NCBI GenBank assembly: GCA_043823645.1
Contig: JBDRAO010000024.1
Span: forward strand, 1-48,704
Length of the DNA stretch: 48,704 bases
Origin: a bacterium
GTDB lineage: Bacteria > Patescibacteriota > WWE3 > JBDRAO01
Direction: 5' to 3'
Position 1 is the first letter of the stretch. Every line of letters starts with the position of its first letter. A program made the position numbers and the translations under genes. The notes beneath the pieces are model-generated. The model did not search any database and had not been told where the DNA came from. It saw only the letters and a program-made list of their open reading frames with translations. Below are positions 1 through 43,992 of the stretch, piece after piece.

Positions 1-78
1 AACAAGTTGCCGGAGACAAATTCCCGTGTGGAAAAGTTTGCCTTAGGCGAGCTATCCGGGTCAACTGACCGTCTCTAA
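1..78 (+). CDS. 3' end of an unidentified CDS entering from the left edge (partial)
   Basis: Frame 1 is open from base 1 to TAA at 76-78 (NKLPETNSRVEKFALGELSGSTDRL*). The stop lies in a hairpin (accgtc/gacggt) followed by a T-run. Too short to identify. Confidence 0.25.
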   Translation, partial: NKLPETNSRVEKFALGELSGSTDRL

Positions 79-166: not shown

Positions 167-250
167 TGCCTGACTCATATGTGCTCGATATCCGACCTTT
201 ATCAAACCTATCCTCTTGATGTTATCTTTGTCTAAAGTGAATTTTTCCAT

Positions 251-306
251 AAAATTAAAGATTAAAGAGCAAAAAGCAAAAACACAAAGCAAAAATTAAA
301 AAACAG
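251..306. repeat. Rep-F copy 1 (A/G-rich: aaaattaaagattaaagagcaaaaagcaaa...)
   Basis: Shares aaaattaaagattaaaRagcaaaRagcaaa with 8927-8962. Lies just past the stop of the 311-700 gene. The opposite flank (705-757) is the T/C-rich inverse. Confidence 0.6.
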
Positions 307-310
307 AAAC

Positions 311-700
311 CTAACGTCTTTTCTTTAGTGTTAGCATACTTGCCCCTAAGATATTCGCCAGTTCGCAAGTTTCTGAATATAGGTTGTCTAATTTCGCCCC
401 TATGTTACTTTCGCCAACTGAATCTCTTGTCAGCGAAATCCAAAATTTTGACTCATTAGCGCTCTTGAGTGCGTGGCTCAAGAAATTGGTGAAATCTCGT
501 TTTGAACTGCCCGCCTGGGCTTCCACAACATTTGCCCCCACAGATGTTGCTGAACGCAAGAGTTGTTTTCCCAATGTTTGGTAGATATAATCTCTGGGCA
601 GAATTCTCAAAACGGCAATAACATCCAAGGCATACTTCTTGGATCGCTGCTCAAAGTTAAGATTGCTATTTCTTTTTTCTGGATTGTTGTTGACTTCCAT
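311..700 (-). CDS. Four-helix-bundle protein (23S rRNA intervening-sequence protein family)
   Basis: 129 aa. GKQLLRSATSVGANVVEAQAGSSKRDF...SANESKFW matches the family pattern QlxRaaxSixaNIaEG...s.kdf...E. Confidence 0.75.
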   Translation of the reverse strand: MEVNNNPEKRNSNLNFEQRSKKYALDVIAVLRILPRDYIYQTLGKQLLRSATSVGANVVEAQAGSSKRDFTNFLSHALKSANESKFWISLTRDSVGESNIGAKLDNLYSETCELANILGASMLTLKKRR

Positions 701-9287: not shown

Positions 9288-10185
9288 ACAGTTTACTGGG
9301 AGTTACCCCTGCCCTTTGGCAGTTCTGTTTATACAACGACAAGATACCACTTGTCAAGTCTTTGGGGTGGAGAAAGAGCTGTTTGGGGTGGCCTCCAGCC
9401 CTTCCGCCCAAAGATGTTTTATTCGCATGTACGGGCTTGCCAGCTAACTTCAATTTAGAAGTTATTCTCTGCAAGCCCTCGACAGCAAAAATGCGAGAAC
9501 CACTAACAGCATTTTTGCTGGCGACATGCTCTAAAACACTTTGGCCCGGATGGGCCGGCGGCTGTGCAGACTCCACAAAATTAGGCAAAAACTCCAAAAT
9601 CCACCGGTTGGCAGACAGAAATTTTTGGTAATACTCCCCCTTGTCAACCAAAGGCTTTACCCGGGCAATTTCTTGGGCCACAAATAAATTCTGGCGCTCC
9701 TTGGGCATTGAAAGGCTCTCTTCCTCAAAAAAGATATTAAAGCAAGCGAAGGTCTTAATAGGTCGTATATGACTTATAAGACCTATTAAAGGGTGGTAGC
9801 GACTTCTACGCTTCAGGGTTAGCGAAAATAGAACAGTGAGCCCAAGCCGAACCAAAAAAAGCCCACCCTGGCGAGTAATTACCATAAAATCGGCATCGGA
9901 AGTTTCCTTGGCGCCTCCGGCCGCCAAATCTCCGGTCAAAAAAACCGCCCTGACACCAGGCATCTTACTCGCCAGTACAGCCAATCGATTTGCTGTACAA
10001 AGTTTTTCTACCAATAAAGCAGAGGGAACTTGTTTTTTAGGACAGTGCCTTACAAAAGGCCTTAAATCGGGTAAGGAGCATTTAGTTCCAATAAGGTACC
10101 GGTAGATTTCTTCCTGCGAGGGGGAATAATTAAAAATCTCAAAGTAACAAAAGGTGCGTTTAACGGCGGACTTAAGGCTTGTCAT
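9277..10185 (-). CDS. Nucleotidyltransferase-fold domain protein (function unknown)
   Basis: 302 aa. VFLTGDLAAGGAKETSDADFMVIT resembles the GS-x-A-x-G...SD-x-D minimal NTase signature. Carries Rep-B in frame. Confidence 0.45.
   Translation of the reverse strand: MTSLKSAVKRTFCYFEIFNYSPSQEEIYRYLIGTKCSLPDLRPFVRHCPKKQVPSALLVEKLCTANRLAVLASKMPGVRAVFLTGDLAAGGAKETSDADFMVITRQGGLFLVRLGLTVLFSLTLKRRSRYHPLIGLISHIRPIKTFACFNIFFEEESLSMPKERQNLFVAQEIARVKPLVDKGEYYQKFLSANRWILEFLPNFVESAQPPAHPGQSVLEHVASKNAVSGSRIFAVEGLQRITSKLKLAGKPVHANKTSLGGRAGGHPKQLFLHPKDLTSGILSLYKQNCQRAGVTPSKLYET
9328..9357 (-). promoter_or_regulatory. Sigma70-like promoter for groES-groEL
   Basis: The minus strand reads TTGACA, 18 nt, TATAAA, about 40 nt upstream of the groES ATG. 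It lies inside the 3' end of the upstream ORF. No CIRCE inverted repeat was seen. Confidence 0.4.
9751..9789. repeat. Rep-B copy 1 (ggtcttaataggtcgtatatgacttataagacctatt), in frame in a CDS
   Basis: Nested inverted arms aataggtc/gacctatt and ggtctta/taagacc. Related copies at 25465-25494 and 37993-38026. Confidence 0.65.
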
Positions 10186-12055
10186 TGGCTGTATCTTTCG
10201 CTATAACCGGGTGAATATCAACCTCCGGCTCGACCTCTTTGTCGGCGCGCGCCGAAGCCGCCATCTCCACCAACTCCTGCGGCTTGGTGGTAATAAGGTT
10301 GTGCTCTTTGGGAGAAGCCACCACCTTTATAGCCACATGGTTAGAGCCGGCAAAAAAGAGGCCCTCGCCCACATCGGCCGAAAGCAGGAACCGCTTTTCC
10401 CCCTCACTCAAATAGAACACCTCGCCCAGCTTGTCAATGGCCGCGGGGTGCTGTTTGAAAAGAATTTGCAAAGAGGCGTTTTTTACAATAGCCCAGCCAT
10501 ACTCATTGTTCAAAAAGTCTTCCACATCTTGGGTAATGGTAGTGAGCCCCAAATAATATTTTCTGGCTCGCTTGGCAATAGAGTACAAAAACATAGCCGA
10601 ATCGGGATACTGCATAAGATACCAGGCCTCATCTACCACCAAAATGCGCTTTTTCAACTGCTTTTTAATGCGAGTCCAAATAAAATCCAACACAATATAC
10701 ATTGCCGTGGGGCGCAACTTATCTTCCAAATTACGAGTGGAGAAAACGGTAAAGGGGTTGGTAATATCCACCGTGGATTGTTCGGAAAAAATGCCGGCCA
10801 AAGAGCCTTTAATATACGGCTCCAACTGCACCGCCATTTCCCGCGCCTCCGGCTCAATTTGCCCCAAAAGCACCTTGTACAAATCTTCCAAAATGGGGGG
10901 CTCCTTGTTTTGGGTGGCCGGCTCGGTGGTGATACCCTTGAGTTTGTAGGTTTGAATGAGAGCCTTATCGAGCACTGCCTCGGCTGAGGGGGTAATTTTC
11001 CCAAAAATTATCTTAAACAAGGTGTGAAGCGATAAAATTTTGGTGCCCAGCTCATTTTCCCCCTCCTCAAAAACTCCCGAGAGATCAAAGGGGTTTATTT
11101 TCTCTTTTGAGTTTTGCGAAAACTCAATATACTCGCCCTGGACCGACTCACATAACCGTTGGTATTCCTGCTCCGGGTCAATGACCAAAACCTCGGCCCC
11201 AAACATTAGCATACGAGCCGCCTCCAACTTTACAAAGTAAGATTTGCCGGCTCCCGATTTGGCAAACACCACCGAGTTGGCATTTTCCAAACCAAACCGG
11301 TCAAAAATTACCAGGGAGTTATTGTGCTCATTAATGCCATATAAAATCCCCTCGTTGGCAGTCAGCTCCGAAGAGGTAAACGGAAAGGTGGTGGCAATTG
11401 AGGTGGTATCCATATTGCGGGTAATCAAAAGCTTATCGGTACAGGTGGGTAAGGTGGTTTTAAAACCTTCTTCCATTTGCAAGGTGGCGTGCTTGGCAAT
11501 GAGCATTAGTGATCCCATGGTGGACTCAATTCTTTTGGAAATATTGTTAAGTTCATCTAAGGTGGGGGCAGAAATGGTGACATAAAAGGAAAATTGGAAA
11601 AAGCGTTCCTCGCCCTTAACCAACTGCTCCTGCAAAGATTTGGCATCCTCCAAGGCAGCCTTAACAGCCGGATCAACCACCCGCCTTCTTTCGATATCGC
11701 TTGATATGGTCACTTCCATCTCGGCAACTTTACGGCGCAGATCATCCAGCACCCCTTTGGCTTTAACTGGGTAGTAAAACATAGAAACATCGATGCTATG
11801 TTCAAAATTGATTATCGGTGAGAGCCAGTTGGCGCTCACAAACCTCGGGTAGCCGGACACAAACAAGGTGCGGTAATACAAATCGCCTATTTTAATATTG
11901 TCAAAGTCAATCTCGATTGAGGGGGGAGCAATAATGTCTTTTAAGTTAAAGCTTCCTTGTTCTAAAACCTCGGCGGCCGAAGGTTCGGACACCGGCTTAA
12001 TATCTTCCAAGGAGGCGACTTCTTTCTTTTTTGCAAAAGGAAGGTTTAGTTTCAT
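10172..12055 (-). CDS. virB4: VirB4/TraE-type T4SS ATPase
   Basis: 627 aa. Walker A is FAKSGAGKSYF and Walker B is RILVVDEAW. The N-terminal APPSIEIDFDNIKIGDLYYRTLFVSGYPRFV is typical of Gram-positive VirB4 homologues. Confidence 0.8.
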   Translation of the reverse strand: MKLNLPFAKKKEVASLEDIKPVSEPSAAEVLEQGSFNLKDIIAPPSIEIDFDNIKIGDLYYRTLFVSGYPRFVSANWLSPIINFEHSIDVSMFYYPVKAKGVLDDLRRKVAEMEVTISSDIERRRVVDPAVKAALEDAKSLQEQLVKGEERFFQFSFYVTISAPTLDELNNISKRIESTMGSLMLIAKHATLQMEEGFKTTLPTCTDKLLITRNMDTTSIATTFPFTSSELTANEGILYGINEHNNSLVIFDRFGLENANSVVFAKSGAGKSYFVKLEAARMLMFGAEVLVIDPEQEYQRLCESVQGEYIEFSQNSKEKINPFDLSGVFEEGENELGTKILSLHTLFKIIFGKITPSAEAVLDKALIQTYKLKGITTEPATQNKEPPILEDLYKVLLGQIEPEAREMAVQLEPYIKGSLAGIFSEQSTVDITNPFTVFSTRNLEDKLRPTAMYIVLDFIWTRIKKQLKKRILVVDEAWYLMQYPDSAMFLYSIAKRARKYYLGLTTITQDVEDFLNNEYGWAIVKNASLQILFKQHPAAIDKLGEVFYLSEGEKRFLLSADVGEGLFFAGSNHVAIKVVASPKEHNLITTKPQELVEMAASARADKEVEPEVDIHPVIAKDTANDKP

Positions 12056-12732
12056 ATTTTACCTTGCACCATTACTCTTTCGCGATCGGACGGATCGCCG
12101 ATTTTTTGAAACCTTGATATTTGAGGGTTATAGGCGGCGTAGAAAAGTTCCACTAATTCCTGGTTTTGCATCTGGCGCGCGCCAATGCCAATACGGGCAA
12201 ATTGCTTAATGAGGTGATCTCTTTTGGGCTCCAATTCCAACAAAGCTTTTTTAACCAAGGTTTTTTGCGGCATTAAAAACTTAGGCTGGGGCTCGCGGTT
12301 TCTTAACCAATCTACCGGCGACTGTTTGGGCTTTATAGAAACGGAATTGTAGGGAATGGTTACAAAAAACTTTTTATCTAAAACATCGTTTTTAGCCACA
12401 ATTTGCTTGATATACTCTTCGTATTCTTTAATCTCGGCTATTCTTTTTTGGCTTGGTTGTTTGGTTTTTTCGCTTGACAGCCAATTGAGGTACTGGGAAA
12501 TATCCATTCGTTTGCTTTTTATGAGAATTTGCACCTGGAAAGAAAGGGAATTTAAAAGACTGCCATAGGCGTCAATGGCGGCGTCCTGCTCTCTTTCAGA
12601 CAAGAGGTCAAAATTTACCGCCGACACAGTCAGCAGGAGCCTTACCCCGCCATCTTTGAGTATTACTAAGCCATCGCGAATGGTTTCAATGTCCAAATGA
12701 TTTTGGGTGGTAGTTTTTACAGCAGTCGGCAT
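12052..12732 (-). CDS. T4SS-associated protein resembling the VirB4 N-terminal domain
   Basis: 226 aa. LDIETIRDGLVILKDGGVRLLLTVSAVNFDLLSEREQDAAIDAYGSLLNSL follows the same pattern as the N-terminal region of VirB4/TraC-type proteins. Shows 4-nt stop/start overlap with virB4. Confidence 0.4.
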   Translation of the reverse strand: MPTAVKTTTQNHLDIETIRDGLVILKDGGVRLLLTVSAVNFDLLSEREQDAAIDAYGSLLNSLSFQVQILIKSKRMDISQYLNWLSSEKTKQPSQKRIAEIKEYEEYIKQIVAKNDVLDKKFFVTIPYNSVSIKPKQSPVDWLRNREPQPKFLMPQKTLVKKALLELEPKRDHLIKQFARIGIGARQMQNQELVELFYAAYNPQISRFQKIGDPSDRERVMVQGKI

Positions 12733-12736
12733 TGTG

Positions 12737-13774
12737 TTAAGAAGCTTTAGCCCTTATCTCTAAGGGGGGCAATTTCTCGCCCTTAAGACTTATTTTAATA
12801 GTATCAAAATTTTCACCATCTTTCCTCACTTCCACTAAATAGTCACCGTTTTCAAGCGAGGTGGTAATTTGAAAACGGCCCAAAGCATTGCTTTTTAGGG
12901 CTCTAACAGGGTCGCCATCGGGCTCTTTAATTACAATAACAGCGCCATCTACCAGCTTGCCTTTCTTGTCGAAAACTATGCCATGCACCGTATTTGGTTT
13001 GGTTTCAAAAACAGGCTGGGGCTTTTCTGCCACTACCTTTTTTGGCGCCGGTTTGTTTTTAATACGGGGCGCGCCGGGTTCTTTTCGTACTACCACTGGC
13101 GGTTCATAAGATTGGCGCGATTCTTCCCGCTGGGTTTTTTTGGCAACCTCCTCTACCTGAAAGAAAGGCTCTTTCTTAGAAGGCGGTGAGGAGGGCCCTG
13201 CCACGGTAGACACAAAAGGGGCGGCCAACGGCGCCGCCGAGGGAGGCGGCTCGGGAGAAGTATCTTTTTTCTCCAAAGAAAAGTCTAGGGATCTAATAAA
13301 ATCTTCCCGCCTTTTTTCCAAAGGATCGCTATTCTCGTGAGACACTCTTTCCAAAACTTCGGTAAGCTCTACTTTTTTATCGTAGCGACTGGTATCTTTT
13401 GACACCACCGGCGCTTCGGCTAAAAACTCATCTAAAACTTGCATAAATTTAGGGTATTGGGGGGCCTTGCGCCACACCATTATTACCGGGGAAAAAAGCG
13501 CCTTGATAAAGCTTTTAATCCAAATGTCTAAACCCCTATCTTGAATGGGCACAAAGGCCATACCCACCCCAAGGCCTATACAAATAAACACTAAAAGCCA
13601 GCGCCAAATAAAGTAGAGGCCGGATTTGTAGGCAATAAAGGCAGAAACCGCTCCCACTGCCACATAGCCAAACTGCTTAATGGTCAGTTCCCCTATTAGC
13701 TTAAACTCCACATTCATTATGTTTTGGGGAACAGGGTGTTGTTTTGAGGTTCTGTAAGAACTGGTGTCGGGCAT
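12737..13774 (-). CDS. PrgI-family (VirB3-like) membrane protein with C-terminal carboxypeptidase-regulatory-like beta-sandwich
   Basis: 345 aa. HPVPQNIMNVEFKLIGELTIKQFGYVAVGAV plus two TM helices is PrgI-like. A Pro/Lys-rich linker follows. The C-terminus VHGIVFDKKGKLVDGAVIVIKEPDG...GDYLVEVRKDG is CarboxypepD_reg-like. Confidence 0.5.
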   Translation of the reverse strand: MPDTSSYRTSKQHPVPQNIMNVEFKLIGELTIKQFGYVAVGAVSAFIAYKSGLYFIWRWLLVFICIGLGVGMAFVPIQDRGLDIWIKSFIKALFSPVIMVWRKAPQYPKFMQVLDEFLAEAPVVSKDTSRYDKKVELTEVLERVSHENSDPLEKRREDFIRSLDFSLEKKDTSPEPPPSAAPLAAPFVSTVAGPSSPPSKKEPFFQVEEVAKKTQREESRQSYEPPVVVRKEPGAPRIKNKPAPKKVVAEKPQPVFETKPNTVHGIVFDKKGKLVDGAVIVIKEPDGDPVRALKSNALGRFQITTSLENGDYLVEVRKDGENFDTIKISLKGEKLPPLEIRAKAS

Positions 13775-13806: not shown

Positions 13807-14220
13807 TCAGTTATCAAGTGCGTAGTTTAAAAGAGAGTCGGCTTCTTGGTTTTTCTCCCGCGGAATGTGGTTGTAAGTCACCTTGGCAAAGTTTTTTTCT
13901 AAGCTTTTAACTTGGGTTGCCAAAACAGCCAAACGGGCTTCTTTTATTTTCCACCGACCCGATAATTGCTCCACCACCAGTTTGGAATCTAAAAAGGCTC
14001 TTATTGCTTTGTCCCTGGCATTCCCAAAACCGGTAGCTCTTTGCAAACCTGCCATAATACCGTGATACTCGGCTTCGTTGTTGGTGGCCACTCCAATTTG
14101 CAAGCCAGCCTGGGCCAAAGTTTTGTCGCTTAAATCCTTGATAACATATCCTACCGCCGCCGGACCTGGGTTGCCGCGCGCGCCACCATCACTGTAAATC
14201 AGTAGTGTATCCTTTTTCAT
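13807..14220 (-). CDS. rnhA: Ribonuclease HI
   Basis: The likely start is MKKDTLLIYSDGGARGNPGPAA (ATG 14220; the track extends to 14247). NNEAEYHG and KNQEAD are catalytic-motif-like. Confidence 0.8.
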   Translation of the reverse strand: MKKDTLLIYSDGGARGNPGPAAVGYVIKDLSDKTLAQAGLQIGVATNNEAEYHGIMAGLQRATGFGNARDKAIRAFLDSKLVVEQLSGRWKIKEARLAVLATQVKSLEKNFAKVTYNHIPREKNQEADSLLNYALDN

Positions 14221-14241
14221 AAAGCACCAAACTATCCCTCT

Positions 14242-14265
14242 ATCCAACTATTCGAATAGTTAGAT
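14242..14265. repeat. Rep-E copy 2 (atccaactattcgaatagttagat)
   Basis: One mismatch from the 6327-6350 palindrome. Intergenic, between rnhA and the Wzz-like gene. Confidence 0.75.
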
Positions 14266-14976: not shown

Positions 14977-16368
14977 ATGCCTAGAAAACCATACTACATC
15001 ACCACTCCAATTTACTATGTGAACGATATCCCCCATGTGGGACACACTTGCACCACCTTGGTGGCCGATGTTTTGGCCCGCTACCAGAAAGAGCGAGGAA
15101 GAGAGGCGTTTTTTTTAACAGGTACCGATGAACACGGCGCCAAAATTGCCGAGGCGGCTAAAAAAGCGGGCAAGGAACCACAAGAGTTTACCAATGAAGT
15201 TTCCCAAAGATTTGTGGAGGCTTGGAAGCTCTTAAACTTTGAGTACGATTATTTTATCCGCACCACTAACCCCAAACACAAAACCCTAGCCCAAGGCTTT
15301 CTGCAAAGACTCTACGACCAGGGAGACATTTACAAAGGGCATTATGAAGGCCTTTACTGTGTGGGCTGTGAAAAATTTATAACTGAAAAGGAACTAGTAG
15401 ATGGTAAGTGTCCCCTGCACGAGCGGGAACCGGAAAAACAAAGTGAAGAAAATTACTTCTTTAAGCTTTCTGCCTACATCCCAAAAGTGAAGGAACTCAT
15501 TGAGAAAGACATTTTCAGAGTGTCGCCGGAAAACAAAAAGAAGGAGATTTTAAACAAAATTGAGGCGGGGGTGCGAGATCTTTCCATTAGCCGCGCCAAT
15601 GTTACCTGGGGCATACCAATTCCTTGGGACAGCCGCCAAACTATTTATGTCTGGTTTGAGGCGCTCCTTAATTACTGGACAGCACCACAAATGGTGGGAC
15701 AAGAACTTTGGCCGCCAGGAATACAATTTATTGGCAAGGAAATTGCCTGGTTCCACTGTGTCATTTGGCCAGCTATGCTGTTGTCTTACGGAGAAACATT
15801 ACCCAAAGAAGTCTTTGTGCACGACTTTTACAACTTAAAGGGCATTAAAATTAGTAAAAGTTTGGGTAATATGATAGGCCCTTCCGAGTTAGTGGAAAAA
15901 TTTGGGGTAGACGGCGCCCGCTACCTTTTGGCTGTTTTTTTCCCCCACTCTTCCGACACTGCTCTTGCTTGGGAACTTATGATCAACAAGTACAATGCCG
16001 ATTTGGCCAATGGGTTGGGTAATCTGGTGTCCCGTTTGGCAGCTCTGGCTGAGAAGAACCAAGTATCTCCCTACACCCCCTTTACCCCCCTTCCCCCCTT
16101 AACCCTCTGGGATGAGTATAATCTCCCTCAAATTTTAGAGGGAACTTGGGAAAAACTTCGCGCCTTGGACAAGGAACTCAATGAAAAACAACCCTGGAAA
16201 CTAGAGCCAGAAAAAGCCCGACCGGTGCTTTCAGAAATCATTGGCAAACTCCTGCAACTAAACTCCCAAATAAAACCCTTCCTTCCCCAAACCACTACCG
16301 CTATTGAAGCCGTCTTTGCCGCTAACCCAACTGAGGCTTTGAAAAAACCTCTTTTTCCAAGACTATGA
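14977..16368 (+). CDS. metG: Methionine--tRNA ligase (compact form)
   Basis: The start MPRKPYYITTPIYYVNDIPHVGH carries the HIGH motif. GIKISKSLGN is the KMSKS motif. CVGCEKF...CPLH is a zinc knuckle. The track start 14908 is probably too far upstream. Confidence 0.9.
   Translation: MPRKPYYITTPIYYVNDIPHVGHTCTTLVADVLARYQKERGREAFFLTGTDEHGAKIAEAAKKAGKEPQEFTNEVSQRFVEAWKLLNFEYDYFIRTTNPKHKTLAQGFLQRLYDQGDIYKGHYEGLYCVGCEKFITEKELVDGKCPLHEREPEKQSEENYFFKLSAYIPKVKELIEKDIFRVSPENKKKEILNKIEAGVRDLSISRANVTWGIPIPWDSRQTIYVWFEALLNYWTAPQMVGQELWPPGIQFIGKEIAWFHCVIWPAMLLSYGETLPKEVFVHDFYNLKGIKISKSLGNMIGPSELVEKFGVDGARYLLAVFFPHSSDTALAWELMINKYNADLANGLGNLVSRLAALAEKNQVSPYTPFTPLPPLTLWDEYNLPQILEGTWEKLRALDKELNEKQPWKLEPEKARPVLSEIIGKLLQLNSQIKPFLPQTTTAIEAVFAANPTEALKKPLFPRL
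16070..16108. repeat. Rep-A copy 1 (C-rich, in frame in metG; encodes PYTPFTPLPPLTL)
   Basis: ccctacaccccctttaccccccttccccccttaaccctc shares ccccttaacccc / ccccccttaccc blocks with the other four copies. Confidence 0.65.
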
Positions 16369-21184: not shown

Positions 21185-22546
21185 ATGCTTGAAAACCCAA
21201 ACCTTACCACAATATGGCAGAAAGTCTTAAACTCTTTGGAAGTGGACTTATCCCCAGCTGTCTTTAACACTTTTTTTAGAAGCACCCGTGTTTTAAAACA
21301 GGAAAATAACATCTTTACCATTGCCGTTTCCGACACTTATCAAAAAGAAAATCTGGAATTGCGCTACTATGCCCAAATTAAAACAGTGCTGGATGACATA
21401 GTAAGCGAAAAAACCGAACTGATCTTTAAGATCAGCGCTCCCCAAGAAACAGAACACAAAGGAAATTTGGGACCCCTGTTCAAAAAAGAGGATAACAGTG
21501 AGCAACACTCTCTATGTCTTGCCAAGGCCAAAGAGGCCGGCCTGGCTCCCTTTTACACTTTTGATTCGTTTATAGTGGGCGCCAACAACAATGTGGCCCA
21601 CGCCACAGCGGAAGCTATTACTAAAAATCCGGGGCAAATGTACAACCCCCTTTTCATATACTCTGGGGTGGGCCTTGGAAAAACGCATCTTATTCAAGCC
21701 ATTGGCAATGAGATTATAAAAGAGCACCCCCATCTTAAAGTGCTTTATTGTACCGGAGAGAGTTTTATGAACGAGCTTTTGGAAGCCATTGGCAATAGAA
21801 GAACTGCCTTTTTTAGAAAAAAATTCCGCGCCGCCGATGTTTGGATTATAGATGACGCCCAATTCATTGCCGGTCGCGAATCTACTCAAGAAGAATTCTT
21901 TAACACCTTTAACACTCTCTACCAGGAAAAAAAACAGGTAATCTTAGCCTCGGATCGCGCTCCCCGCGACATTTCCAAACTGGAAGAACGGCTCTCCTCC
22001 CGCTTTGCGGCCGGTATGATAACCCGCCTCGACCCACCCGATTTGGAAATGCGTATTGTTCTTTTGCGCCAAAAGAGGCAGGAGAATAATTTTACTGTGA
22101 GTGACGAAATTTTAGAAACAGTGGCGCGCCTGGTGTCTGCCAATATTCGCGAACTGGAAGGAGCCCTCCTGCAGGTAGTCTCGCACGCGGCCGCCAAGAA
22201 AGAACCATTGTCAAAAGAAATGGTGTTTGAAATTCTAGGTAAGGGCGAGAAAGATTTCAAATTAAGCCGCGCTCCCAAAAAAATGATCCGCAATGTGGCC
22301 CAACACTACGACATTTTAATAAAAGATTTAAAAGGCCGGTCACGCAAGGCAGACATTGTCCTGCCACGGCAGGTTTGTATGTATCTTTTAAGAATAGATT
22401 GCGATCTGCCCTTGGAAAGTGTGGGGGAACTGCTGGGCGGGCGGGACCACACCACCATAATGCACGGGGTCGCCAAGATTGAAAACAAGGCGCAAAAAGA
22501 TAGTTCCTTTAAAAAAGAAATCCACAACTTATCCACCCAGTTCTAA
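21185..22546 (+). CDS. dnaA: Chromosomal replication initiator DnaA
   Basis: 453 aa. FDSFIVGANN, SGVGLGKTHL, IIDDAQF and the C-terminal GGRDHTTIMHG. Confidence 0.95.
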   Translation: MLENPNLTTIWQKVLNSLEVDLSPAVFNTFFRSTRVLKQENNIFTIAVSDTYQKENLELRYYAQIKTVLDDIVSEKTELIFKISAPQETEHKGNLGPLFKKEDNSEQHSLCLAKAKEAGLAPFYTFDSFIVGANNNVAHATAEAITKNPGQMYNPLFIYSGVGLGKTHLIQAIGNEIIKEHPHLKVLYCTGESFMNELLEAIGNRRTAFFRKKFRAADVWIIDDAQFIAGRESTQEEFFNTFNTLYQEKKQVILASDRAPRDISKLEERLSSRFAAGMITRLDPPDLEMRIVLLRQKRQENNFTVSDEILETVARLVSANIRELEGALLQVVSHAAAKKEPLSKEMVFEILGKGEKDFKLSRAPKKMIRNVAQHYDILIKDLKGRSRKADIVLPRQVCMYLLRIDCDLPLESVGELLGGRDHTTIMHGVAKIENKAQKDSSFKKEIHNLSTQF

Positions 22547-22684
22547 ACATCCTTCCGAGACTACCCCACACACAAAAACAGCCTAAACAGGGAAAGAAAG
22601 CAATCTAGCAATCAAAAAACGCCGCCACAAAAGCAAGGCAACTTTTTCAACAAGCCAAAGCTTGAGATTTGTAACCCCCAACCC

Positions 22685-22713
22685 CACTTTTCCACTTTTC
22701 CACTTTTCCACTC
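22685..22713. repeat. Tandem 8-mer cacttttc x3.5, giving three overlapping TTTTCCACT DnaA-box-like 9-mers
   Basis: Read directly. Followed by an AT-rich tract (actaattttattataatgtttag). Confidence 0.45.
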
Positions 22714-22755
22714 TTTCTACTACCACTACTACTAATTTTATTATAATGTTTAGTA

Positions 22756-23889: not shown

Positions 23890-24602
23890 CAATGGTGTGG
23901 TTGTACCCCAAACATCTTAATTTGTACGGCGATAGAGGCAATATTGAATGTCTCAAGCGGCGGCTTGAGTGGCGGGGACTCCAATATAAATTGGTAGAGT
24001 TTAATGTGGGAGATTCTCTCAAAAAACTTACAGGGGCAGACCTGTTTTTTGCCGGAGGCGGGCCGGATTCATTGCAAAGGGAGGTTTCAGCCGATGCCTT
24101 TCGCCTCAAACCGGCGCTTATAAAGGCGCAAGAGCAGGGCAGGGCCGGGCTCTTTATTTGCGGCTTTTACCAGCTTTTGGGGCGTTTCTACCGCCCCGCT
24201 GAAGGAGCCGACATCCCTGGTCTTGGTATCTTTGATTGCTACACCGAACACTTCGGGGCGCGGCGAAAGCGTTGTGTGGGAAATATTGTTACCACGCCCC
24301 TTATCCCTCTTAACCCCCTTACCCCCCTTGTTGGATTTGAAAACCACGAGGGCAGAACTTACCTATGTCCCACGGCCAAACCTCTAGCCAAAGTTCAACG
24401 GGGCTTTGGCAACAATGGCCAAGACAAGACCGAGGGGATCATTAAGGGAAATTTTGTGGGGACTTACTTACACGGCCCTCTTTTACCTAAAAACCCCCAC
24501 CTGGCCGATTGGCTATTGGCAAAAGCTTTGGGCGAAAAACTACCATTCCTAGACGACAAATTGGAGTGGCAGACACATACAAATGCTCTCAAACTCAAGT
24601 AA
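23886..24602 (+). CDS. gatD: Glutamine amidotransferase GatD (CobQ-like), partner of MurT
   Basis: LNLYGDRGNIECLKRRLEWRG, catalytic-Cys context ICGFYQLLG, GFENHEGRT and the His context GTYLHGP. Confidence 0.8.
   Translation: MTMVWLYPKHLNLYGDRGNIECLKRRLEWRGLQYKLVEFNVGDSLKKLTGADLFFAGGGPDSLQREVSADAFRLKPALIKAQEQGRAGLFICGFYQLLGRFYRPAEGADIPGLGIFDCYTEHFGARRKRCVGNIVTTPLIPLNPLTPLVGFENHEGRTYLCPTAKPLAKVQRGFGNNGQDKTEGIIKGNFVGTYLHGPLLPKNPHLADWLLAKALGEKLPFLDDKLEWQTHTNALKLK
24296..24330. repeat. Rep-A copy 2 (in frame in gatD; encodes PLIPLNPLTPL)
   Basis: gccccttatccctcttaacccccttacccccctt, immediately before the conserved GFENH motif. Confidence 0.65.
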
Positions 24603-33167: not shown

Positions 33168-33232
33168 CAATTAACAATTACGAGTTACAAATTACGAATG
33201 AATTAAAATCCTATGAATTATAATTCGTAATT
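33168..33232. repeat. Rep-D solo hairpin element
   Basis: caattaacaattacgagttacaaattacgaatga ... attcgtaatt. The left arm is about 90% identical by eye to 46307-46340 and 47438-47471. Confidence 0.7.
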
Positions 33233-33237
33233 AGATT

Positions 33238-33885
33238 GTGATGGCAAAAAACACCAAGAATATAAAAATTAAGTTTCAGTTGGAAAGTCTCCTTTCGGTC
33301 AATGCTCTTTTGGCCGTGGTAATTGCCCTGGAGCTTTTAATTGCTCTTTATCTCATTGTCTCTCAAAATTACCAACTAAAGGCTTTATACAATCGCTCTT
33401 TGGAGGGAGTGAGGAAAATATCCGAAGAGTCAACTGCCAAGGCCAAACAGGCCAGCACCTCAGCCTCTCTGCTTTTACAGGCAGACGCCAAAACCTACTT
33501 GGCTGGAGAGCCGGCTGAAGTAGAGGTAGTGCTTACGCTCGACAAGCCGGAGACAATTTCTGCCATTGAGGGCCGGCTCAAATACGATCCCAACTATATT
33601 AAGATTAACAATATTGTGACTCGTAGCCTTTTCAAAAAAGCGGCCGATAAGGACGACCCCGCCGGTGGGGTTTTCTACTTTGCCTTTTACAGCGAAGACG
33701 GCCAAAAAATAACCAACTCTTTGGGGCTAGCCACTGTTTCGTTTACGCCTCTGCGCCAGGGCGCCACGGCTTTAGAGTTTGTATTTAGTGAAGGAGCTAG
33801 CAGTAGCAGTTCCACAGTAATGCGCTATACCGACCCCACCAATCTCTTGCAAAAGGTTAATAGTGTCGATATTGTAATAGAGTAA
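33238..33885 (+). CDS. Cohesin-domain protein (membrane-anchored)
   Basis: 215 aa with an N-terminal TM helix. VEVVLTLDKPETISAIEGRLKYDPNYIKINNI...FYFAFYS...LATVSFTPLRQGATALEF fits the cohesin beta-sandwich pattern. Confidence 0.6.
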   Translation: MMAKNTKNIKIKFQLESLLSVNALLAVVIALELLIALYLIVSQNYQLKALYNRSLEGVRKISEESTAKAKQASTSASLLLQADAKTYLAGEPAEVEVVLTLDKPETISAIEGRLKYDPNYIKINNIVTRSLFKKAADKDDPAGGVFYFAFYSEDGQKITNSLGLATVSFTPLRQGATALEFVFSEGASSSSSTVMRYTDPTNLLQKVNSVDIVIE

Positions 33886-35408: not shown

Positions 35409-35430
35409 ACGATACCCCCCTCTCTAGGAA

Positions 35431-35484
35431 CACCCGAAGGGTGGAATTCCTTTTTTGTTGTATATGTATTCCACCCTTCGGGTG
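35431..35484. terminator. Bidirectional terminator between convergent genes
   Basis: Perfect 17-nt inverted arms cacccgaagggtggaat and attccacccttcgggtg. Each arm also folds as caccc-gaa-gggtg. The plus-strand copy is followed by tcctttttt. Confidence 0.7.
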
Positions 35485-35493
35485 TATAGCTAG

Positions 35494-38374: not shown

Positions 38375-38452
38375 GAATTACGAATTACGAATGACGAATT
38401 ACGAATGAAAAATGCAATTAATTCGTAATTGTTAATTCGTAATTGTTAATTA
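38375..38452. repeat. Rep-D solo hairpin element in the tpiA-pgk spacer, with remnant mini-ORF
   Basis: aattacgaattacgaatgacgaattacgaATGAAAAATGCAATTAATTCGTAAttgttaattcgtaattgttaatt. The mini-ORF at 38405-38428 reads MKNAINS*. Confidence 0.75.
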
Positions 38453-39362: not shown

Positions 39363-39380
39363 AAGTTAATATGAGTATAT

Positions 39381-40451
39381 ATGGAAATCTTAAGTCTTGA
39401 AACCAGTTGCGATGAGACTGCCGCCGCCGTGGTGTCAGATGGCACCAAAGTGCTTTCCTCGGTGGTGGCTTCAAGCGAGGCTCTCCACCAAAAATATGGC
39501 GGCATTGTGCCGGAAGTGGCGGCTCGGGAACAGGTAAGAACAATTATTCCGGTTATTCACGAGGCTTTGGAACGGGCCTCAGTGGGGTGGGGCATTGATG
39601 CCATAGCGGTTACTTATGGCCCTGGATTAGTGGGCTCCCTTTTGGTAGGGGTAGAGACTGCCAAGGCGCTGAGTTGGGTACTAAATAAGCCACTGCTAAA
39701 AGTAAACCATCTGCTGGCCCACATTTATGGAGCTTTCCTGATCTCCCCCGACCCCGCTTTACCCCCCTTACCCGCTTACCCCCGGATTGAGTTCCCCTTT
39801 GTAGCCCTTGTTGTTTCTGGTGGCCACACCGACTTACTATTGATGAAAGGCCACACAACATACCGGTGGCTTGGGGGAACGCGCGATGACGCCGCCGGCG
39901 AGGCTTTTGATAAGGCGGCTCGCCTTTTGGGTTTAGGTTATCCCGGCGGGCCGGCCATTGCCAAAGTGGCTTTAAGTGGGCAGGCCGGTGCAGTAGACCC
40001 GCTTCCCAGGCCCTTAATAAACTCCCCCGATTTAGACTTTTCCTTCTCCGGTCTCAAAACCGCCCTCCTAAAGCGAGTATCCTATCCTTCCCTTTCCTAT
40101 TCTCCCCCCTTTCCTATAATTTCCCCCTTACCCCCTTTGACCCCCTTAACCCCAGAACAAGTAAACCTTGCCTACGAATTTCAAGAGGCGACCACAGACA
40201 CTCTGACTCACAAAACTATTCTTGCGGGAAAAAAGTACAACACCTCGACTATTGTCCTCTGCGGCGGGGTCTCGGCTAACATCTGCCTGCGGGAAAAATT
40301 AAGTGTGGCTGCGGAAAAAGAGGGGATTCAAGTTTTAGTGCCGGATTTTAAATATTCCACCGATAACGCCGCCATGGTAGGCAGTCGCGCCTTTTTTGCG
40401 CCCAGTGTAAGTTTGGGGGAATTAACAGCCGAGGCCGGCCTAAATTATTGA
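39381..40451 (+). CDS. tsaD: tRNA N6-adenosine threonylcarbamoyltransferase TsaD
   Basis: ILSLETSCDETAAAVV, VSGGHT, AAGEAFDK and LCGGVSAN. Confidence 0.9.
   Translation: MEILSLETSCDETAAAVVSDGTKVLSSVVASSEALHQKYGGIVPEVAAREQVRTIIPVIHEALERASVGWGIDAIAVTYGPGLVGSLLVGVETAKALSWVLNKPLLKVNHLLAHIYGAFLISPDPALPPLPAYPRIEFPFVALVVSGGHTDLLLMKGHTTYRWLGGTRDDAAGEAFDKAARLLGLGYPGGPAIAKVALSGQAGAVDPLPRPLINSPDLDFSFSGLKTALLKRVSYPSLSYSPPFPIISPLPPLTPLTPEQVNLAYEFQEATTDTLTHKTILAGKKYNTSTIVLCGGVSANICLREKLSVAAEKEGIQVLVPDFKYSTDNAAMVGSRAFFAPSVSLGELTAEAGLNY
39744..39785. repeat. Rep-A copy 3 (in frame in tsaD; SPDPALPPLPAYP)
   Basis: tcccccgaccccgctttacccccccttacccgcttaccccc-type C-run block, read directly at 39744-39785. Confidence 0.55.
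40081..40154. repeat. Rep-A copy 4 (in frame in tsaD; YPSLSYSPPFPIISPLPPLTPLTP)
   Basis: ...ttccccccttaccccctttgacccccttaacccc. The longest copy. Confidence 0.6.
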
Positions 40452-41164: not shown

Positions 41165-41190
41165 CAGTGGGGTTACTATACACTACTGTG

Positions 41191-42222: not shown

Positions 42223-43992
42223 ATCAGAAACTTTGCCATAATTTCACACATTGATCACGGCAAGTCCACCCTGGCCGATAGGTTTTTGGAGCTGACCCAA
42301 ACGGTGGGTAAAAAAGAAATGCATGCGCGTTTTTTGGACAGCATGGCCCTGGAGCAGGAAAAAGGGATTACTATTAAGCTCAAGGCTGTTAGAATGAGCT
42401 GTCAAATGTCGGACATCAGTCATCCGACATCCGACAGGTTTATTCTTAATTTAATAGACACGCCTGGACATGTGGATTTTTCCTACGAAGTCTCGCGCGC
42501 CCTGGCCGCCTGTGAGGGCGCTCTTTTGCTGGTAGATGCCACTCAGGGCATTCAGGCGCAAACCTTAGCAGTGCTTTATAAGGCGCTCGATTTAAATTTA
42601 ACTATTATTCCGGTAATCAATAAGGTAGATTTGCCTACGGCAGGAAGCGGATTGGCCGTTTTAGAACAGCAAATGCGCGATTTGCTGGGAGGGTATGGGG
42701 GTGAGGTTTCCAAAATATCGGCCAAGACCGGTGGGGGAGTAGAAGGGCTTTTACAAAGGATTGTAAAAGAAATCCCAAGTCCAAAATCCCTGCCTTGCCG
42801 GCAGGCAGGCAAATATCAAAACAAATTGAGAGCCTTAATTTTCGATAGTTACTACGACCAGTACAAAGGGGTGGTGGCTCTGGTAAGGGTTTTTGGGGGT
42901 ACCATTGAGGGTAGTAGTCCTCTTTATGCTGTAGGGTCAAAAACCGAGTTTGAACCTTTGGAGCTGGGGTTTTTTACGCCCCACTCCAAAAAAACCGCCT
43001 TAATTTCAGCTGGTGAGGTGGGCTATATTGCCACCGGTTTAAAAGATATCTCTAAGGTTCGAGTGGGGGATACCATTGTTTCCTTTCCCCTTAACCCCCT
43101 TTCCCCCCTTACCCCTCTCCCCGGCTACAGGGCGCCGCAGGCTATGGTTTTTTTAAGCCTCTACCCTAAAGACGCGGCTCGTTTTGGAGACCTCAAAAAG
43201 GCTCTGGAACACCTAAATTTAACCGATGCGGCCCTTACAGTGGAGCCGGAAAACACGCCCGCCTTGGGGGTGGGTTTTAAGGTGGGCTTTTTGGGGCTTT
43301 TGCACGCTGAAATAACCGTGGAACGCTTAAAGCGGGAATACGGCTTAGATTTAATTAGCACCATCCCCCAGGTGGCTCATAAAAAAGTTGAGGGAGATAT
43401 TTACGAGCCAAAGGTAAAGGGGCAAATTTTTACGCCTCGGCGGTACTTGGGAGCGGTGCTAAAATTAACCGATTCGGCCCGCGGGGAGTTTTTAGATACC
43501 CGCTATTTAAGTGAGGATAGCGTTTTGGTAGAGGCAAAACTGCCGCTTTCGGAGCTCGTGGCCAATTTTTACGATCGTCTCAAGTCACTCACTTCAGGTT
43601 ATGCCAGTTTGAGTTACGAGTTTTTGGGGTTTGAAAAGGAAGATTTGGTACTCCTTGATATTTTGGTACACGGGGAAAAGGTGGCCGCCCTTTCTCAAAT
43701 TGTGCCACGAGCGAGGGCCTACGCCATTGGCAGTCAATTAATAAAAAAATTAAAAGATACCATCCCCAGGGAGCAGTTTAAGGTGGCTTTGCAGGCGGCC
43801 ATTGGGGGCAAGATTATTGCCCGAGAAACTTTGCCGGCTTTTAGAAAAGATGTCACCGCCAAGCTTTACGGGGGAGACCGCACCCGCCGCGATAAATTAC
43901 TCAAAAAGCAGGCCAGGGGAAAAAAGAGGATGGGGGCTGAGGGCAGGGTAAACCTTTCCCCGGAAGCTATTTTTAAATTAGTCTCCTCGTGA
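42211..43992 (+). CDS. lepA: Elongation factor 4 (LepA)
   Basis: NFAIISHIDHGKSTLADR, IDTPGHVDF, NKVDL and the C-terminal LYGGDRTRRDKLLKKQ. Confidence 0.95.
   Translation: MSNHIRNFAIISHIDHGKSTLADRFLELTQTVGKKEMHARFLDSMALEQEKGITIKLKAVRMSCQMSDISHPTSDRFILNLIDTPGHVDFSYEVSRALAACEGALLLVDATQGIQAQTLAVLYKALDLNLTIIPVINKVDLPTAGSGLAVLEQQMRDLLGGYGGEVSKISAKTGGGVEGLLQRIVKEIPSPKSLPCRQAGKYQNKLRALIFDSYYDQYKGVVALVRVFGGTIEGSSPLYAVGSKTEFEPLELGFFTPHSKKTALISAGEVGYIATGLKDISKVRVGDTIVSFPLNPLSPLTPLPGYRAPQAMVFLSLYPKDAARFGDLKKALEHLNLTDAALTVEPENTPALGVGFKVGFLGLLHAEITVERLKREYGLDLISTIPQVAHKKVEGDIYEPKVKGQIFTPRRYLGAVLKLTDSARGEFLDTRYLSEDSVLVEAKLPLSELVANFYDRLKSLTSGYASLSYEFLGFEKEDLVLLDILVHGEKVAALSQIVPRARAYAIGSQLIKKLKDTIPREQFKVALQAAIGGKIIARETLPAFRKDVTAKLYGGDRTRRDKLLKKQARGKKRMGAEGRVNLSPEAIFKLVSS
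42788..42809. repeat. Rep-C GC palindrome in frame in lepA (SLPCRQAG)
   Basis: ccctgccttgccggcaggcagg is the same core as 24800-24820, 46696-46714 and 47497-47516. Confidence 0.7.
43081..43122. repeat. Rep-A copy 5 (in frame in lepA; FPLNPLSPLTPLP)
   Basis: tcctttccccttaaccccctttccccccttacccctctcccc. Confidence 0.65.

What the first reader, a model, noticed from the sequence alone, without database searches (positions are those of the whole stretch)
16070..16108. Rep-A: C-run repeat (ccccttaacccc / ccccccttaccc) inserted in frame in four essential genes, always sense-strand, with G-quadruplex potential on the template strand
There are five copies:
- metG 16070-16108 (PYTPFTPLPPLTL)
- gatD 24296-24330 (PLIPLNPLTPL, directly before the conserved GFENH)
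- tsaD 39744-39785 (PDPALPPLPAYP)
- tsaD 40081-40154 (PPFPIISPLPPLTPLTP)
- lepA 43081-43122 (FPLNPLSPLTPLP)

Each sits where orthologues have a loop, and all are read as Pro-Leu-(Asn/Thr/Ser)-Pro-Leu. All five are C-rich on the coding strand. The reverse complement of the lepA copy is GGGGAGAGGGGTAAGGGGGGAAAGGGGGTTAAGGGG, a canonical four-plus G-run quadruplex motif on the template strand. A truncated copy may sit intergenically at about 35411-35428. The pattern looks like a mobile or recombining short element that is tolerated only when translated as a PLxPL loop. Alternatively it is a selected DNA or RNA structure embedded in housekeeping genes.
Basis: partly seen in the sequence, partly recalled or inferred. 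Interest (0 to 1): 0.75.

Follow-up and report, generated by a model that had tools for sequence, protein, structure and literature searches.

The report
Repeated C-rich 30-base module in genes
Five copies of a roughly 30-base, cytosine-run repeat sit in frame in four housekeeping genes of an uncultured ultra-small (CPR) bacterium, where they encode floppy proline-leucine loops; they are real and specific to this lineage, but look like locally grown coding tandem repeats rather than a jumping element or a proven DNA switch.

Summary
Five arrays (metG, gatD, tsaD x2, lepA) share one architecture: four C3-6 runs joined by TT-containing spacers, 29-32 nt long, with a 9-bp period. All are C-rich on the sense strand. 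The pattern gives 5 hits against 0.02 expected by chance.

The similarity is at the DNA level, not the peptide level. The module sits in all three codon phases, and synonymous codon choice inside it is strongly skewed. For example, Pro is CCC in 23 of 29 codons, against 39% elsewhere.

The arrays are absent from about 75 kb of the nearest relatives. They are identical in a second sample of the same organism.

All lie in length-variable loops. In an AlphaFold model of TsaD, the two arrays are the only low-confidence segments. "Inserted" holds only for tsaD (+33 and +63 nt). The lepA array adds 6 nt and sits between native CCCCTT-like seeds. The gatD array adds nothing.

There are no inverted repeats, no defined ends and no intergenic copies, so this is not RPE- or MITE-like.

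All five carry a G-quadruplex (G4) motif on the template strand. A published E. coli study found that orientation to be the genetically stable one.

Best reading: slippage-born coding repeats, filtered by loop tolerance and orientation. The uniform four-run size is unexplained and keeps a templated-cassette reading open.

A whole-genome census could not be done.

The parts
16076..16105 (+). metG array. Core is CCCCCTTTACCCCCCTTCCCCCCTTAACCC (30 nt, 4 C-runs), read TPFTPLPPLTL.
   Evidence: It lies in a length-variable loop of the anticodon-binding domain, and the window's version is among the shortest.
24297..24327 (+). gatD array. Core is CCCCTTATCCCTCTTAACCCCCTTACCCCCC (31 nt, 4 C-runs), read PLIPLNPLTPL, directly before GFENH.
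   Evidence: There is no length change against relatives L122 and L124. The 5' half is homologous to L122 (CCG CTT CTC CCT CTT A).
39752..39783 (+). tsaD array 1. Core is CCCCGCTTTACCCCCCTTACCCGCTTACCCCC (32 nt, 4 C-runs), read DPALPPLPAYP(R).
   Evidence: Here 45 nt replace 12 nt of the closest relative L207, a net gain of 33 nt. AlphaFold pLDDT is below 50 at residues 127-133.
40123..40153 (+). tsaD array 2. Core is CCCCCTTACCCCCTTTGACCCCCTTAACCCC (31 nt, 4 C-runs), read SPLPPLTPLTP.
   Evidence: Together with 40081-40122, 72 nt replace 9 nt of L207, a net gain of 63 nt. pLDDT is below 50 at residues 237-252.
40081..40122 (+). T/C-rich stretch directly upstream of tsaD array 2 that belongs to the same loop insertion. 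It carries a 17-bp imperfect duplication (CCCTTTCCTATAATCCC x2.3).
   Evidence: (TRF row 40090-40129, period 17).
43087..43115 (+). lepA array. Core is CCCCTTAACCCCCTTTCCCCCCTTACCCC (29 nt, 4 C-runs), read PLNPLSPLTP.
   Evidence: It lies in the domain II loop between GDTI and PLPGY. It is 6 nt longer than in the closest relative L206, which carries single seeds CCCCTTAAA and CCCCCTG.

Best explanation
The five arrays are lineage-specific coding tandem repeats. Each has a 9-bp unit of about CCCCCTTAA and four C-runs, spans about 30 nt, and contains almost no G.

They arose at the DNA level inside loop-coding segments of housekeeping genes in a Patescibacteria (CPR) bacterium.

Inferred origin:
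- Replication slippage or local tandem duplication, followed by homogenisation.
- This was seeded on native Pro-Leu codon pairs (CCC-CTT or CCC-TTA) where such seeds existed (lepA, gatD).
- It grew as true insertions in indel-hotspot loops (tsaD).
- Ectopic templated repair between copies may have helped.

Inferred reasons for retention:
- The period is a multiple of three, and both open frames give neutral Pro-Leu-x coil that surface loops tolerate.
- With the G-rich strand as the transcription template, the repeat does not form transcription-induced G4 or R-loops, so it is genetically stable. The opposite orientation would also encode strongly basic Gly/Lys/Arg peptides or stop codons.

Shown here: the repeat family, its DNA-level nature, its loop location, its lineage specificity and its stability between two samples.

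Inferred only: the slippage origin and the orientation filter.
For: Repeat family:
- Period-9 arrays at all five sites, far above chance.

DNA-level rather than peptide-level:
- The first C of the module sits at codon phase 1, 0, 2, 1, 0 in the five copies.
- Inside the arrays, Pro is CCC in 23/29 codons against 39% outside (p = 1e-5).
- Thr is ACC in 7/7 against 46%.
- Ser is TCC in 7/8 against 21%.
- Leu is CTT or TTA in 14/17 against 38%.
- Third-position C is 58% against 25% (p = 9e-10).

Loop location:
- Both TsaD sites are hypervariable in 20 CPR homologues.
- They are the only pLDDT < 50 segments of the model.
- The LepA, MetRS and GatD sites are variable in length among orthologues.

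Seeds in relatives:
- LepA of L206 has CCCCTTAAA and CCCCCTG flanking the site.
- GatD of L122 has CCG CTT CTC CCT CTT A.

Local duplication is active in this genome:
- A 17-bp duplication abuts tsaD array 2.
- LepA carries a second insertion of +21 nt made of four copies of an unrelated 7-bp unit (TCCGACA). Relative L209 has a different 7-bp array at the same site.

Lineage specificity:
- No arrays in about 75 kb from relatives at 59-77% protein identity (p = 0.01).

Stability:
- L121, from another sample, is 99.84% identical over 4.3 kb. It has no indel and no SNP in either tsaD array.

Orientation filter:
- Single CCCCTT seeds are unbiased, 15 sense against 12 antisense. Arrays are 5/5 sense.
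- Antisense frames give GKGGKGVKG- or RGVRGLRG-type peptides or stops.
- In E. coli, a G4-forming repeat was 270-354 times more mutable with the G-rich strand as non-template than as template (PMC7023247).
Against: - A stepwise slippage model predicts many 2-run and 3-run intermediates and variable copy number. The window instead has 10 two-run chains (Markov expectation 22.7), none of three runs, and five of exactly four, all 29-32 nt long.
- Slippage alone does not explain why five independent loops ended up with the same unit.
- tsaD site 1 has no Pro-Leu seed in any relative.
- No copy-number polymorphism was seen, so ongoing slippage is not demonstrated.
- The sense-strand bias is not significant on its own (p = 0.06).
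- In another metagenome-assembled genome (L043), the same 9-bp unit is read antisense as KGVKGVKGVRGV.
- Only 48.7 kb of this genome could be examined.
Confidence: 0.5

Rival explanations
1. A discrete cassette of about 30 nt with four C-runs is copied into, or written over, loop-coding DNA. This could happen by ectopic gene conversion, microhomology-templated repair, or an unknown insertion activity. It would be an RPE-like 'selfish DNA in genes' at one-fifth the size.
For: - Size is quantised: all five copies have exactly four TT-linked C-runs and span 29-32 nt, with no three-run forms and fewer two-run forms than expected.
- All three codon phases are used.
- tsaD site 1 gains 33 nt with no seed in relatives.
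- gatD looks like a same-length overwrite of its 3' half, where 10 of 18 nt differ from L122 against 3 of 18 in the 5' half.
- The native 5' flanks of the gatD and lepA copies are alike (ATTGTTNCC...CCCCTTA) and could anchor ectopic repair.
Against: - The copies share no order of spacer variants and no defined ends.
- There are no inverted repeats; the sense strand is unstructured, with MFE from 0 to -3.7.
- No target duplications are evident, and there are no intergenic copies in 48.7 kb.
- Net length changes are 0, +6, +33 and +63 nt rather than a constant value.
- No candidate enzyme was found. Only about half the window's genes were scanned against Pfam. The only reverse-transcriptase-like Pfam hit (RVT_3, 13807-14247) is an RNase H domain.
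- The gatD difference is within what a fast-evolving loop at 73% gene identity could show.
Confidence: 0.2
2. The arrays are kept by selection for a nucleic-acid structure. Candidates are a G-quadruplex on the template strand, an i-motif on the sense strand, or an unstructured C-rich mRNA tract. The structure would modulate transcription, replication or translation of housekeeping genes.
For: - Exactly four runs is the minimum for an intramolecular G4 or i-motif.
- All five fold into G4 on the template strand in ViennaRNA with G4 terms.
- Potential quadruplex motifs number 9 against 2.2 expected.
- Orientation relative to transcription is uniform (5/5), while orientation relative to replication is 4:1. 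metG lies left of the inferred oriC at about 22.6 kb.
Against: - The arrays are not conserved. Orthologues at 59-77% identity lack them.
- Their position within the ORF is arbitrary, from 34% to 80% of gene length.
- In E. coli, the template-strand orientation is the one that did not form G4 on transcription and was 270-354 times more stable (PMC7023247).
- Stable G4 motifs are reported as depleted across genomes (PMC6614823, title and abstract only).
- No G4 formation has been measured.
Confidence: 0.12
3. The selected object is the peptide. A PLxPL polyproline-II-type short linear motif would have been added to several enzymes as a common docking or linker element.
For: - P[LIFVM]xP[LIFVM] occurs 10 times in the window's proteins, and all 10 are inside the arrays.
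- GatD relatives keep a degenerate P-L-x-P-L loop at the same place.
Against: - Codon choice is far too uniform for convergent peptide selection.
- The DNA module occurs in three phases and gives different peptides: PLN/PLS/PLT, PPL/LPP and PAY.
- The arrays are absent from close relatives' TsaD and LepA.
- They are modelled as disordered.
Confidence: 0.08
4. The motif accumulates by molecular drive. In this reading it is a DNA-uptake-signal-like sequence, favoured during natural transformation and copied into genes by homologous replacement without a change in length.
For: - The same-length replacement in gatD and the near-same-length one in lepA.
- The preference for poorly conserved protein segments.
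- From my own knowledge, not tested here: CPR bacteria commonly carry competence machinery, and uptake sequences in Pasteurellaceae sit in tolerant coding positions.
Against: - There is no fixed core sequence, since spacers and run lengths vary.
- Density is about 1 per 10 kb, against roughly 1 per kb for known uptake sequences (my own knowledge).
- Only one orientation is seen.
- tsaD shows real length gains.
Confidence: 0.03

Closest known systems
In-frame coding tandem repeats (bacterial VNTR or minisatellite-type amino-acid repeats; for example the aaTRs of Borg elements, PMC9879509)
   Same: Both have head-to-tail units whose length is a multiple of three. Both arise independently, are lineage-specific, and create disordered segments in proteins (abstract of PMC9879509).
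   Different: - Borg tandem repeats are perfect, often long, A-enriched, and differ in unit from locus to locus.
- Here, one imperfect C-run unit recurs at five loci with a uniform four-run size.
- It sits in cytoplasmic housekeeping enzymes.
- It shows no copy-number polymorphism between two samples.
Rickettsia palindromic elements (RPEs): selfish repeats inserted in frame in protein-coding genes
   Same: Both are a dispersed DNA repeat family found inside unrelated housekeeping ORFs, translated in frame, at positions compatible with the protein fold (PMC10969869).
   Different: - RPEs are about 150 bp, palindromic, and have a conserved sequence and encoded peptide. They fall into ten families and also occur outside genes.
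- These arrays are about 30 nt and almost G-free, so they cannot form a hairpin.
- They have no conserved linear sequence and add no length in gatD.
Potential G-quadruplex-forming repeats in bacterial genes
   Same: All five copies match the canonical four-run motif on the template strand.
   Different: - Known functional bacterial G4s are mostly promoter- or UTR-associated.
- These are mid-ORF and not conserved in relatives.
- In E. coli, this orientation did not form G4 on transcription (PMC7023247).
Cyanobacterial STRR-type C-run short tandem repeats (CCCCAAT, CCCCTTG and similar)
   Same: Both are C-run plus short-spacer tandem units. A public-genome scan with the three-run pattern returned many such arrays, largely from Nostocales and other cyanobacteria.
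   Different: - Most of the cyanobacterial arrays returned have periods of 6-9 nt, mostly 7-8, and many more copies. In a crude ORF test across all returned loci, arrays lie in either orientation (39 against 36).
- The window's arrays have period 9, are coding, and have four runs.
- That STRRs are typically intergenic is from my own knowledge.
DNA uptake sequences (DUS/USS)
   Same: Both are a short motif found inside genes at tolerant positions, which can spread by replacement without changing length.
   Different: The window's motif has no fixed core, low density and a single orientation. The properties of DUS/USS are from my own knowledge, not tested here.

Membership tests
Coding short tandem repeat (in-frame minisatellite / VNTR) | Head-to-tail copies of one unit | tested here: met
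   TRF reports period 9, 3.2-3.7 copies and 77-85% matches at all five sites.
Coding short tandem repeat (in-frame minisatellite / VNTR) | Unit length is a multiple of three, so copy changes keep the frame | tested here: met
   The period is 9. Individual units vary from 8 to 10 nt, but each array is in frame overall.
Coding short tandem repeat (in-frame minisatellite / VNTR) | Copy number varies between strains | tested here: not met
   The one other sample available (L121, 99.84% identical) has both tsaD arrays unchanged. This is a single comparison, and only two of the five arrays are covered.
Coding short tandem repeat (in-frame minisatellite / VNTR) | Arises locally from pre-existing sequence | tested here: inconclusive
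   Seeds are present in relatives for lepA and gatD. None is visible for tsaD site 1. No close relative of MetRS was available.
RPE / MITE-like in-frame mobile element | Conserved element sequence with terminal or internal inverted repeats | tested here: not met
   The copies share only the repeat unit, not a linear order. The 153 nt of cores contain 3 G in total, and the sense strand has MFE between 0 and -3.7 kcal/mol.
RPE / MITE-like in-frame mobile element | Each copy is a clean gain of the element's length relative to empty sites | tested here: not met
   Net changes are 0 nt (gatD), +6 nt (lepA), +33 nt and +63 nt (tsaD).
RPE / MITE-like in-frame mobile element | Copies also occur in intergenic DNA and in both orientations | tested here: not met
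   There are no intergenic or reverse copies in the window. The 35411-35428 candidate is rejected. Only 48.7 kb could be examined.
G-quadruplex-forming sequence | Four or more runs of at least 3 G with loops of 1-7 nt | tested here: met
   All five arrays meet this on the template strand, and G4 appears in the predicted MFE structures.
G-quadruplex-forming sequence | Folds into a quadruplex in vitro or in vivo and affects a process | not testable with these tools
   This needs CD or melting measurements, polymerase-stop assays and reporter assays.
DNA uptake sequence | Invariant core of about 9-12 nt at high genomic density in both orientations | tested here: not met
   Spacers and run lengths vary. 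There are 5 copies in 48.7 kb, all in one orientation.

The most novel reading that the evidence does not exclude
The arrays are copies of a discrete cassette of about 30 nt with four C-runs. The cassette is written into loop-coding DNA by a templated copy-and-replace or insertion process. It would be the smallest known 'selfish DNA inside genes', and its fixed four-run size would reflect a G4 or i-motif intermediate or recognition structure.
Probability: 0.2. Interest if true: 0.8.

Novelty: new variant of a known kind. Interest (0 to 1): 0.45.

Why it matters
Proteins of CPR bacteria are known for lineage-specific insertions, and how these arise is poorly understood.

This contig gives a concrete example. 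Loop segments of four conserved enzymes are built from one nucleotide-level repeat, and a second, unrelated 7-bp repeat builds another LepA loop.

If the process is ordinary slippage, the contig documents how a reduced genome remodels essential proteins, and how strand orientation filters which repeats survive.

If the uniform four-run module is instead a templated cassette, it would extend the Rickettsia RPE phenomenon to a much smaller element and to a different phylum.

Either way, the G-rich oligonucleotides and the full genome make this directly testable.

Tried and rejected
- **Public-genome scan for the three-run pattern.** It returned C-run microsatellites from cyanobacteria, Streptomyces and others, and nothing related to this organism (no BLAST match to the window). 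It was useful only as background.
- **Metagenome scan for LepA relatives.** It returned only LepA at 47-50% identity from unrelated bacteria. I used these as about 1 Mb of negative control.
- **Search of 5.8 billion proteins with a concatenated PLxPL peptide.** There were 95 candidates and none scored, so a protein-level census failed.
- **Exact look-up of the window's LepA.** It found nothing, although the protein is on record as MFH1896074.1 on a 48,704-nt contig. The rest of this metagenome-assembled genome (MAG) could not be reached.
- **MetRS representative search.** The best hit is 51% identical, which is too distant to polarise the metG array.
- **Codon bias plus a Pro-Leu peptide as the full explanation.** Rejected by the codon test.
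- **Chance.** Rejected.
- **Replication-strand explanation of the orientation.** Rejected as the sole cause, because metG lies on the other side of the inferred origin.
- **Rfam.** No family overlaps any array.
- **Intergenic 'truncated copy' at 35411-35428.** Rejected.
Full report
**What is there**

NCBIfam identifies the host ORFs as methionine-tRNA ligase, the lipid II isoglutaminyl synthase subunit GatD, TsaD, and elongation factor 4 (LepA).

Tandem Repeats Finder (TRF) reports a period-9 array at each site, with 3.2-3.7 copies and consensus CCCCCTTAA, CCCCTTACC or ACCCCCCTT.

The pattern CCCCTTN{2,3}CCCCCTT occurs 5 times against 0.02 expected from dinucleotide shuffles. A three-run pattern occurs 5 times against 0.00.

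No reverse-complement copy exists in the window. About 1 Mb of unrelated bacterial DNA holds no TT-spaced C-run array.

The proposed intergenic fragment at 35411-35428 is only a C7 run followed by CTCTCT, and I do not count it.

**Anatomy**

I defined a chain as C3+ runs joined by spacers of at most 6 nt that contain TT. The window then has:
- 1220 single runs;
- 10 two-run chains, against 22.7 expected under a first-order Markov model;
- no three-run chain;
- five four-run chains.

The five four-run chains are exactly the five arrays, and they are 30, 31, 32, 31 and 29 nt long. The cores contain 3 G in 153 nt.

The sense strand is predicted to be unstructured. The complementary strand is predicted to form a G-quadruplex (G4) in all five. 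Canonical (G3+N1-7)x4 motifs number 9 in the window against 2.2 expected, and five of them are these arrays.

A multiple alignment shows the shared three-unit core. It shows no shared order of spacer variants and no common ends.

**Organism and context**

TsaD and LepA homologues place the contig in Patescibacteria/CPR. The window is a complete 48,704-nt contig of an NCBI metagenome-assembled genome (MAG). Its LepA is MFH1896074.1, labelled 'MAG: bacterium'.

dnaA lies at 21185-22546. It is followed by four TTTTCCAC boxes at 22684-22721, and GC skew changes sign there. I infer that oriC is at about 22.6 kb.

On this basis metG lies on the left replichore and the other three genes on the right. 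The C-rich strand is therefore always the sense strand (5/5), but not always the same strand relative to replication (4:1).

The sense bias alone is weak (two-sided p = 0.06). All four host genes are on the + strand, although 56% of coding DNA is on the - strand (p = 0.04).

**DNA-level or peptide-level?**

The similarity is at the DNA level, for three reasons.
- The first base of the module falls at codon phase 1, 0, 2, 1, 0 in metG, gatD, tsaD-1, tsaD-2 and lepA. The 'same' peptide is therefore a by-product of CCC|CTT and CCC|TTA both reading Pro-Leu.
- Synonymous usage inside the arrays departs strongly from the rest of the window:

| Codon measure | Inside arrays | Elsewhere in window | p |
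|---|---|---|---|
| Pro as CCC | 23/29 | 39% | 1e-5 |
| Thr as ACC | 7/7 | 46% | 0.005 |
| Ser as TCC | 7/8 | 21% | 1e-4 |
| Leu as CTT or TTA | 14/17 | 38% | 3e-4 |
| C at third position | 58% | 25% | 9e-10 |

- The peptide motif P[LIFVM]xP[LIFVM] occurs nowhere else in the window's proteins.

**Are they insertions?**

Only some of them are.

*TsaD.* In an alignment with 20 CPR homologues, both sites are hypervariable loops. The closest relative (P0002, 77% identity in the alignment) lacks both arrays. At the DNA level:
- 45 nt replace 12 nt at site 1, a net gain of 33 nt;
- 72 nt replace 9 nt at site 2, a net gain of 63 nt.

The upstream 41 nt of the site 2 insertion carry a separate 17-bp duplication.

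*LepA.* The closest relative (P0122/L206, 71% identity) reads YPLKRGVSPLSGY where the window reads FPLNPLSPLTPLPGY. The net gain is 6 nt. The relative already has single CCCCTTAAA and CCCCCTG seeds at the two edges. Against Thermus EF4, the loop is 3 residues longer.

*GatD.* There is no length difference from two relatives at 75% and 68% identity. They read PLLPLRLSPLL and PVSPIPSIPL at the same place. The 5' half of the array is homologous to L122 (CCG CTT CTC CCT CTT A). The loop is 4 residues longer than in S. aureus GatD.

*MetRS.* The array lies in a segment whose length varies widely among orthologues, and the window's version is among the shortest. The nearest available homologue is only 51% identical, so the event cannot be polarised.

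An AlphaFold model of TsaD (mean pLDDT 87) has only two segments below pLDDT 50, at residues 127-133 and 237-252. Both fall inside the two array-bearing insertions, and both are coil.

**Age and distribution**

About 75 kb from relatives contains no array (L122, L124, L206, L207, L208, L209; 59-77% protein identity). By contrast, the window has five arrays in 48.7 kb (p = 0.01).

A 4.3-kb contig from a different sequencing run (L121) is 99.84% identical to the window. It has 7 SNPs and no indel, and none of the SNPs is in either tsaD array. The arrays are therefore fixed features of this species-level lineage, not hypervariable loci on that timescale.

**Evidence that local duplication shapes loops in this genome**

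LepA carries a second lineage-specific insertion. Four copies of an unrelated 7-bp unit (TCGGACA TCAGTCA TCCGACA TCCGACA, about 42406-42433) add 21 nt relative to L206. Relative L209 has a different 7-bp array (TCTCAAT x4) at the same site.

Intergenic spacers also carry heptamer arrays.

**Orientation**

Single CCCCTT seeds show no strand preference, with 15 sense and 12 antisense. Arrays appear only in the sense orientation.

Reverse-orientation translation would give stop codons in one frame. In the other two it would give strongly basic GKGGKGVKG- or RGVRGLRG-type peptides.

An E. coli study found a G4-forming repeat to be 270-354 times more mutable when the G-rich strand was the non-template strand than when it was the template strand. 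It attributed this to transcription-induced G4 and R-loop formation (PMC7023247). The orientation seen here is thus the stable one. This argues against a working template-strand G4, though it does not exclude one.

The rule is not universal. In another MAG (L043), CCCCCTTAA x4 is read antisense as KGVKGVKGVRGV inside a 278-codon open frame. Yersinia pestis has a CCCCCCTTA x4 array in an open frame on either strand. A crude ORF test on 125 matches to the three-run pattern from public genomes gave 39 sense against 36 antisense.

**Interpretation**

The best-supported account is that these are coding tandem repeats born at the DNA level in tolerant loops. They would have been seeded on native Pro-Leu codons where available, and retained because the product is harmless coil and the orientation is stable.

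They fail the tests for an RPE- or MITE-like element. They have no palindrome, no conserved sequence or ends, no constant length gain and no intergenic copies (RPE features from PMC10969869).

They resemble Borg-type in-frame tandem repeats in creating disordered segments (PMC9879509). They differ in being imperfect, short, and of one unit type across loci.

**What remains unexplained**

All five arrays have exactly four runs and about 30 nt, with no shorter intermediates. It is also unclear why the same unit was used five times. This keeps open a templated copy-and-replace cassette (my estimate 0.2) or selection for a four-run structure (0.12).

**Limits**

The public genome and metagenome scans and the peptide search did not reach other contigs of this organism. 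Strand, frame and size statistics therefore rest on five copies in one contig.

Noticed in passing
window 42405-42436 (lepA, residues ~65-75); L209 10192-10224: A second, unrelated tandem-repeat insertion in LepA. Four copies of a 7-bp unit (TCGGACA TCAGTCA TCCGACA TCCGACA) add 21 nt (7 aa, MSDISHPTSD) relative to L206. Relative L209 has a different 7-bp array (TCTCAAT x4.1) at the same loop.
   Followed up: partly
window 250-295, 709-754, 33176-33199, 38375-38451, 44849-44889, 46756-46788, 47439-47469; L206 12347-12379: AT-rich heptamer tandem arrays (TAATTCG, GAATTAC, TAATTGT, TCTTTAC; 3-7 copies) fill short intergenic spacers. The same TAATTCG unit (x4.7) occurs downstream of rnpA in relative L206, so the family is conserved across relatives. 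Function unknown (promoter, terminator or STRR-like).
   Followed up: no
window 22684-22721: Four tandem TTTTCCAC(T) boxes lie in the 209-bp spacer after dnaA, where GC skew changes sign. This is a likely oriC with DnaA boxes. Relative L122 has a different 14-bp array (AAAAGCTAGCAGCC x2.6) in the same spacer.
   Followed up: partly
window 1-70 (+) and 311-700 (-): Rfam DUF3800-II RNA hit (61 bits, cut at the contig's 5' end), next to a gene for a 23S rRNA intervening-sequence protein (PF05635).
   Followed up: no
window 35430-35447 / 35468-35485: A perfect 18-nt inverted repeat (ACACCCGAAGGGTGGAAT ... ATTCCACCCTTCGGGTGT) lies between two convergent genes. It is probably a bidirectional terminator.
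   Followed up: no
window 38460-43992; L206, L209: Synteny difference. In relatives the order is PGK - (LytR_C) - RmuC - LepA, with TsaD elsewhere (after the MurT/GatD/Wzy/SBP block). In the window, TsaD and a 239-aa ORF sit between PGK and RmuC.
   Followed up: no
L043 3259-3282 (MAG 'bacterium isolate Yes70-31', GC 34%): The same 9-bp unit (CCCCCTTAA x4) is read on the opposite strand as KGVKGVKGVRGV, inside a 278-codon open frame that looks like a metallophosphoesterase (motifs not checked against a profile). This shows the antisense reading can be tolerated elsewhere.
   Followed up: partly
window 24285-24305 and 43072-43095: The native 5' flanks of the gatD and lepA arrays are alike (ATTGTTACCACGCCCCTTAT against ATTGTTTCCTTTCCCCTTAA; IVTTPL against IVSFPL). 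This may be coincidence or a possible anchor for ectopic repair between the two copies.
   Followed up: no
window 34665-34699: An (ACC)x11.7 trinucleotide array lies inside the ORF at 33885-34826 and would encode a poly-Thr tract if in phase. It is another in-frame simple repeat in this contig.
   Followed up: no
window 10172-13774: A VirB4/TraG-like ATPase and a PrgI-family protein point to a type IV secretion- or conjugation-like cluster on the left arm of the contig.
   Followed up: no
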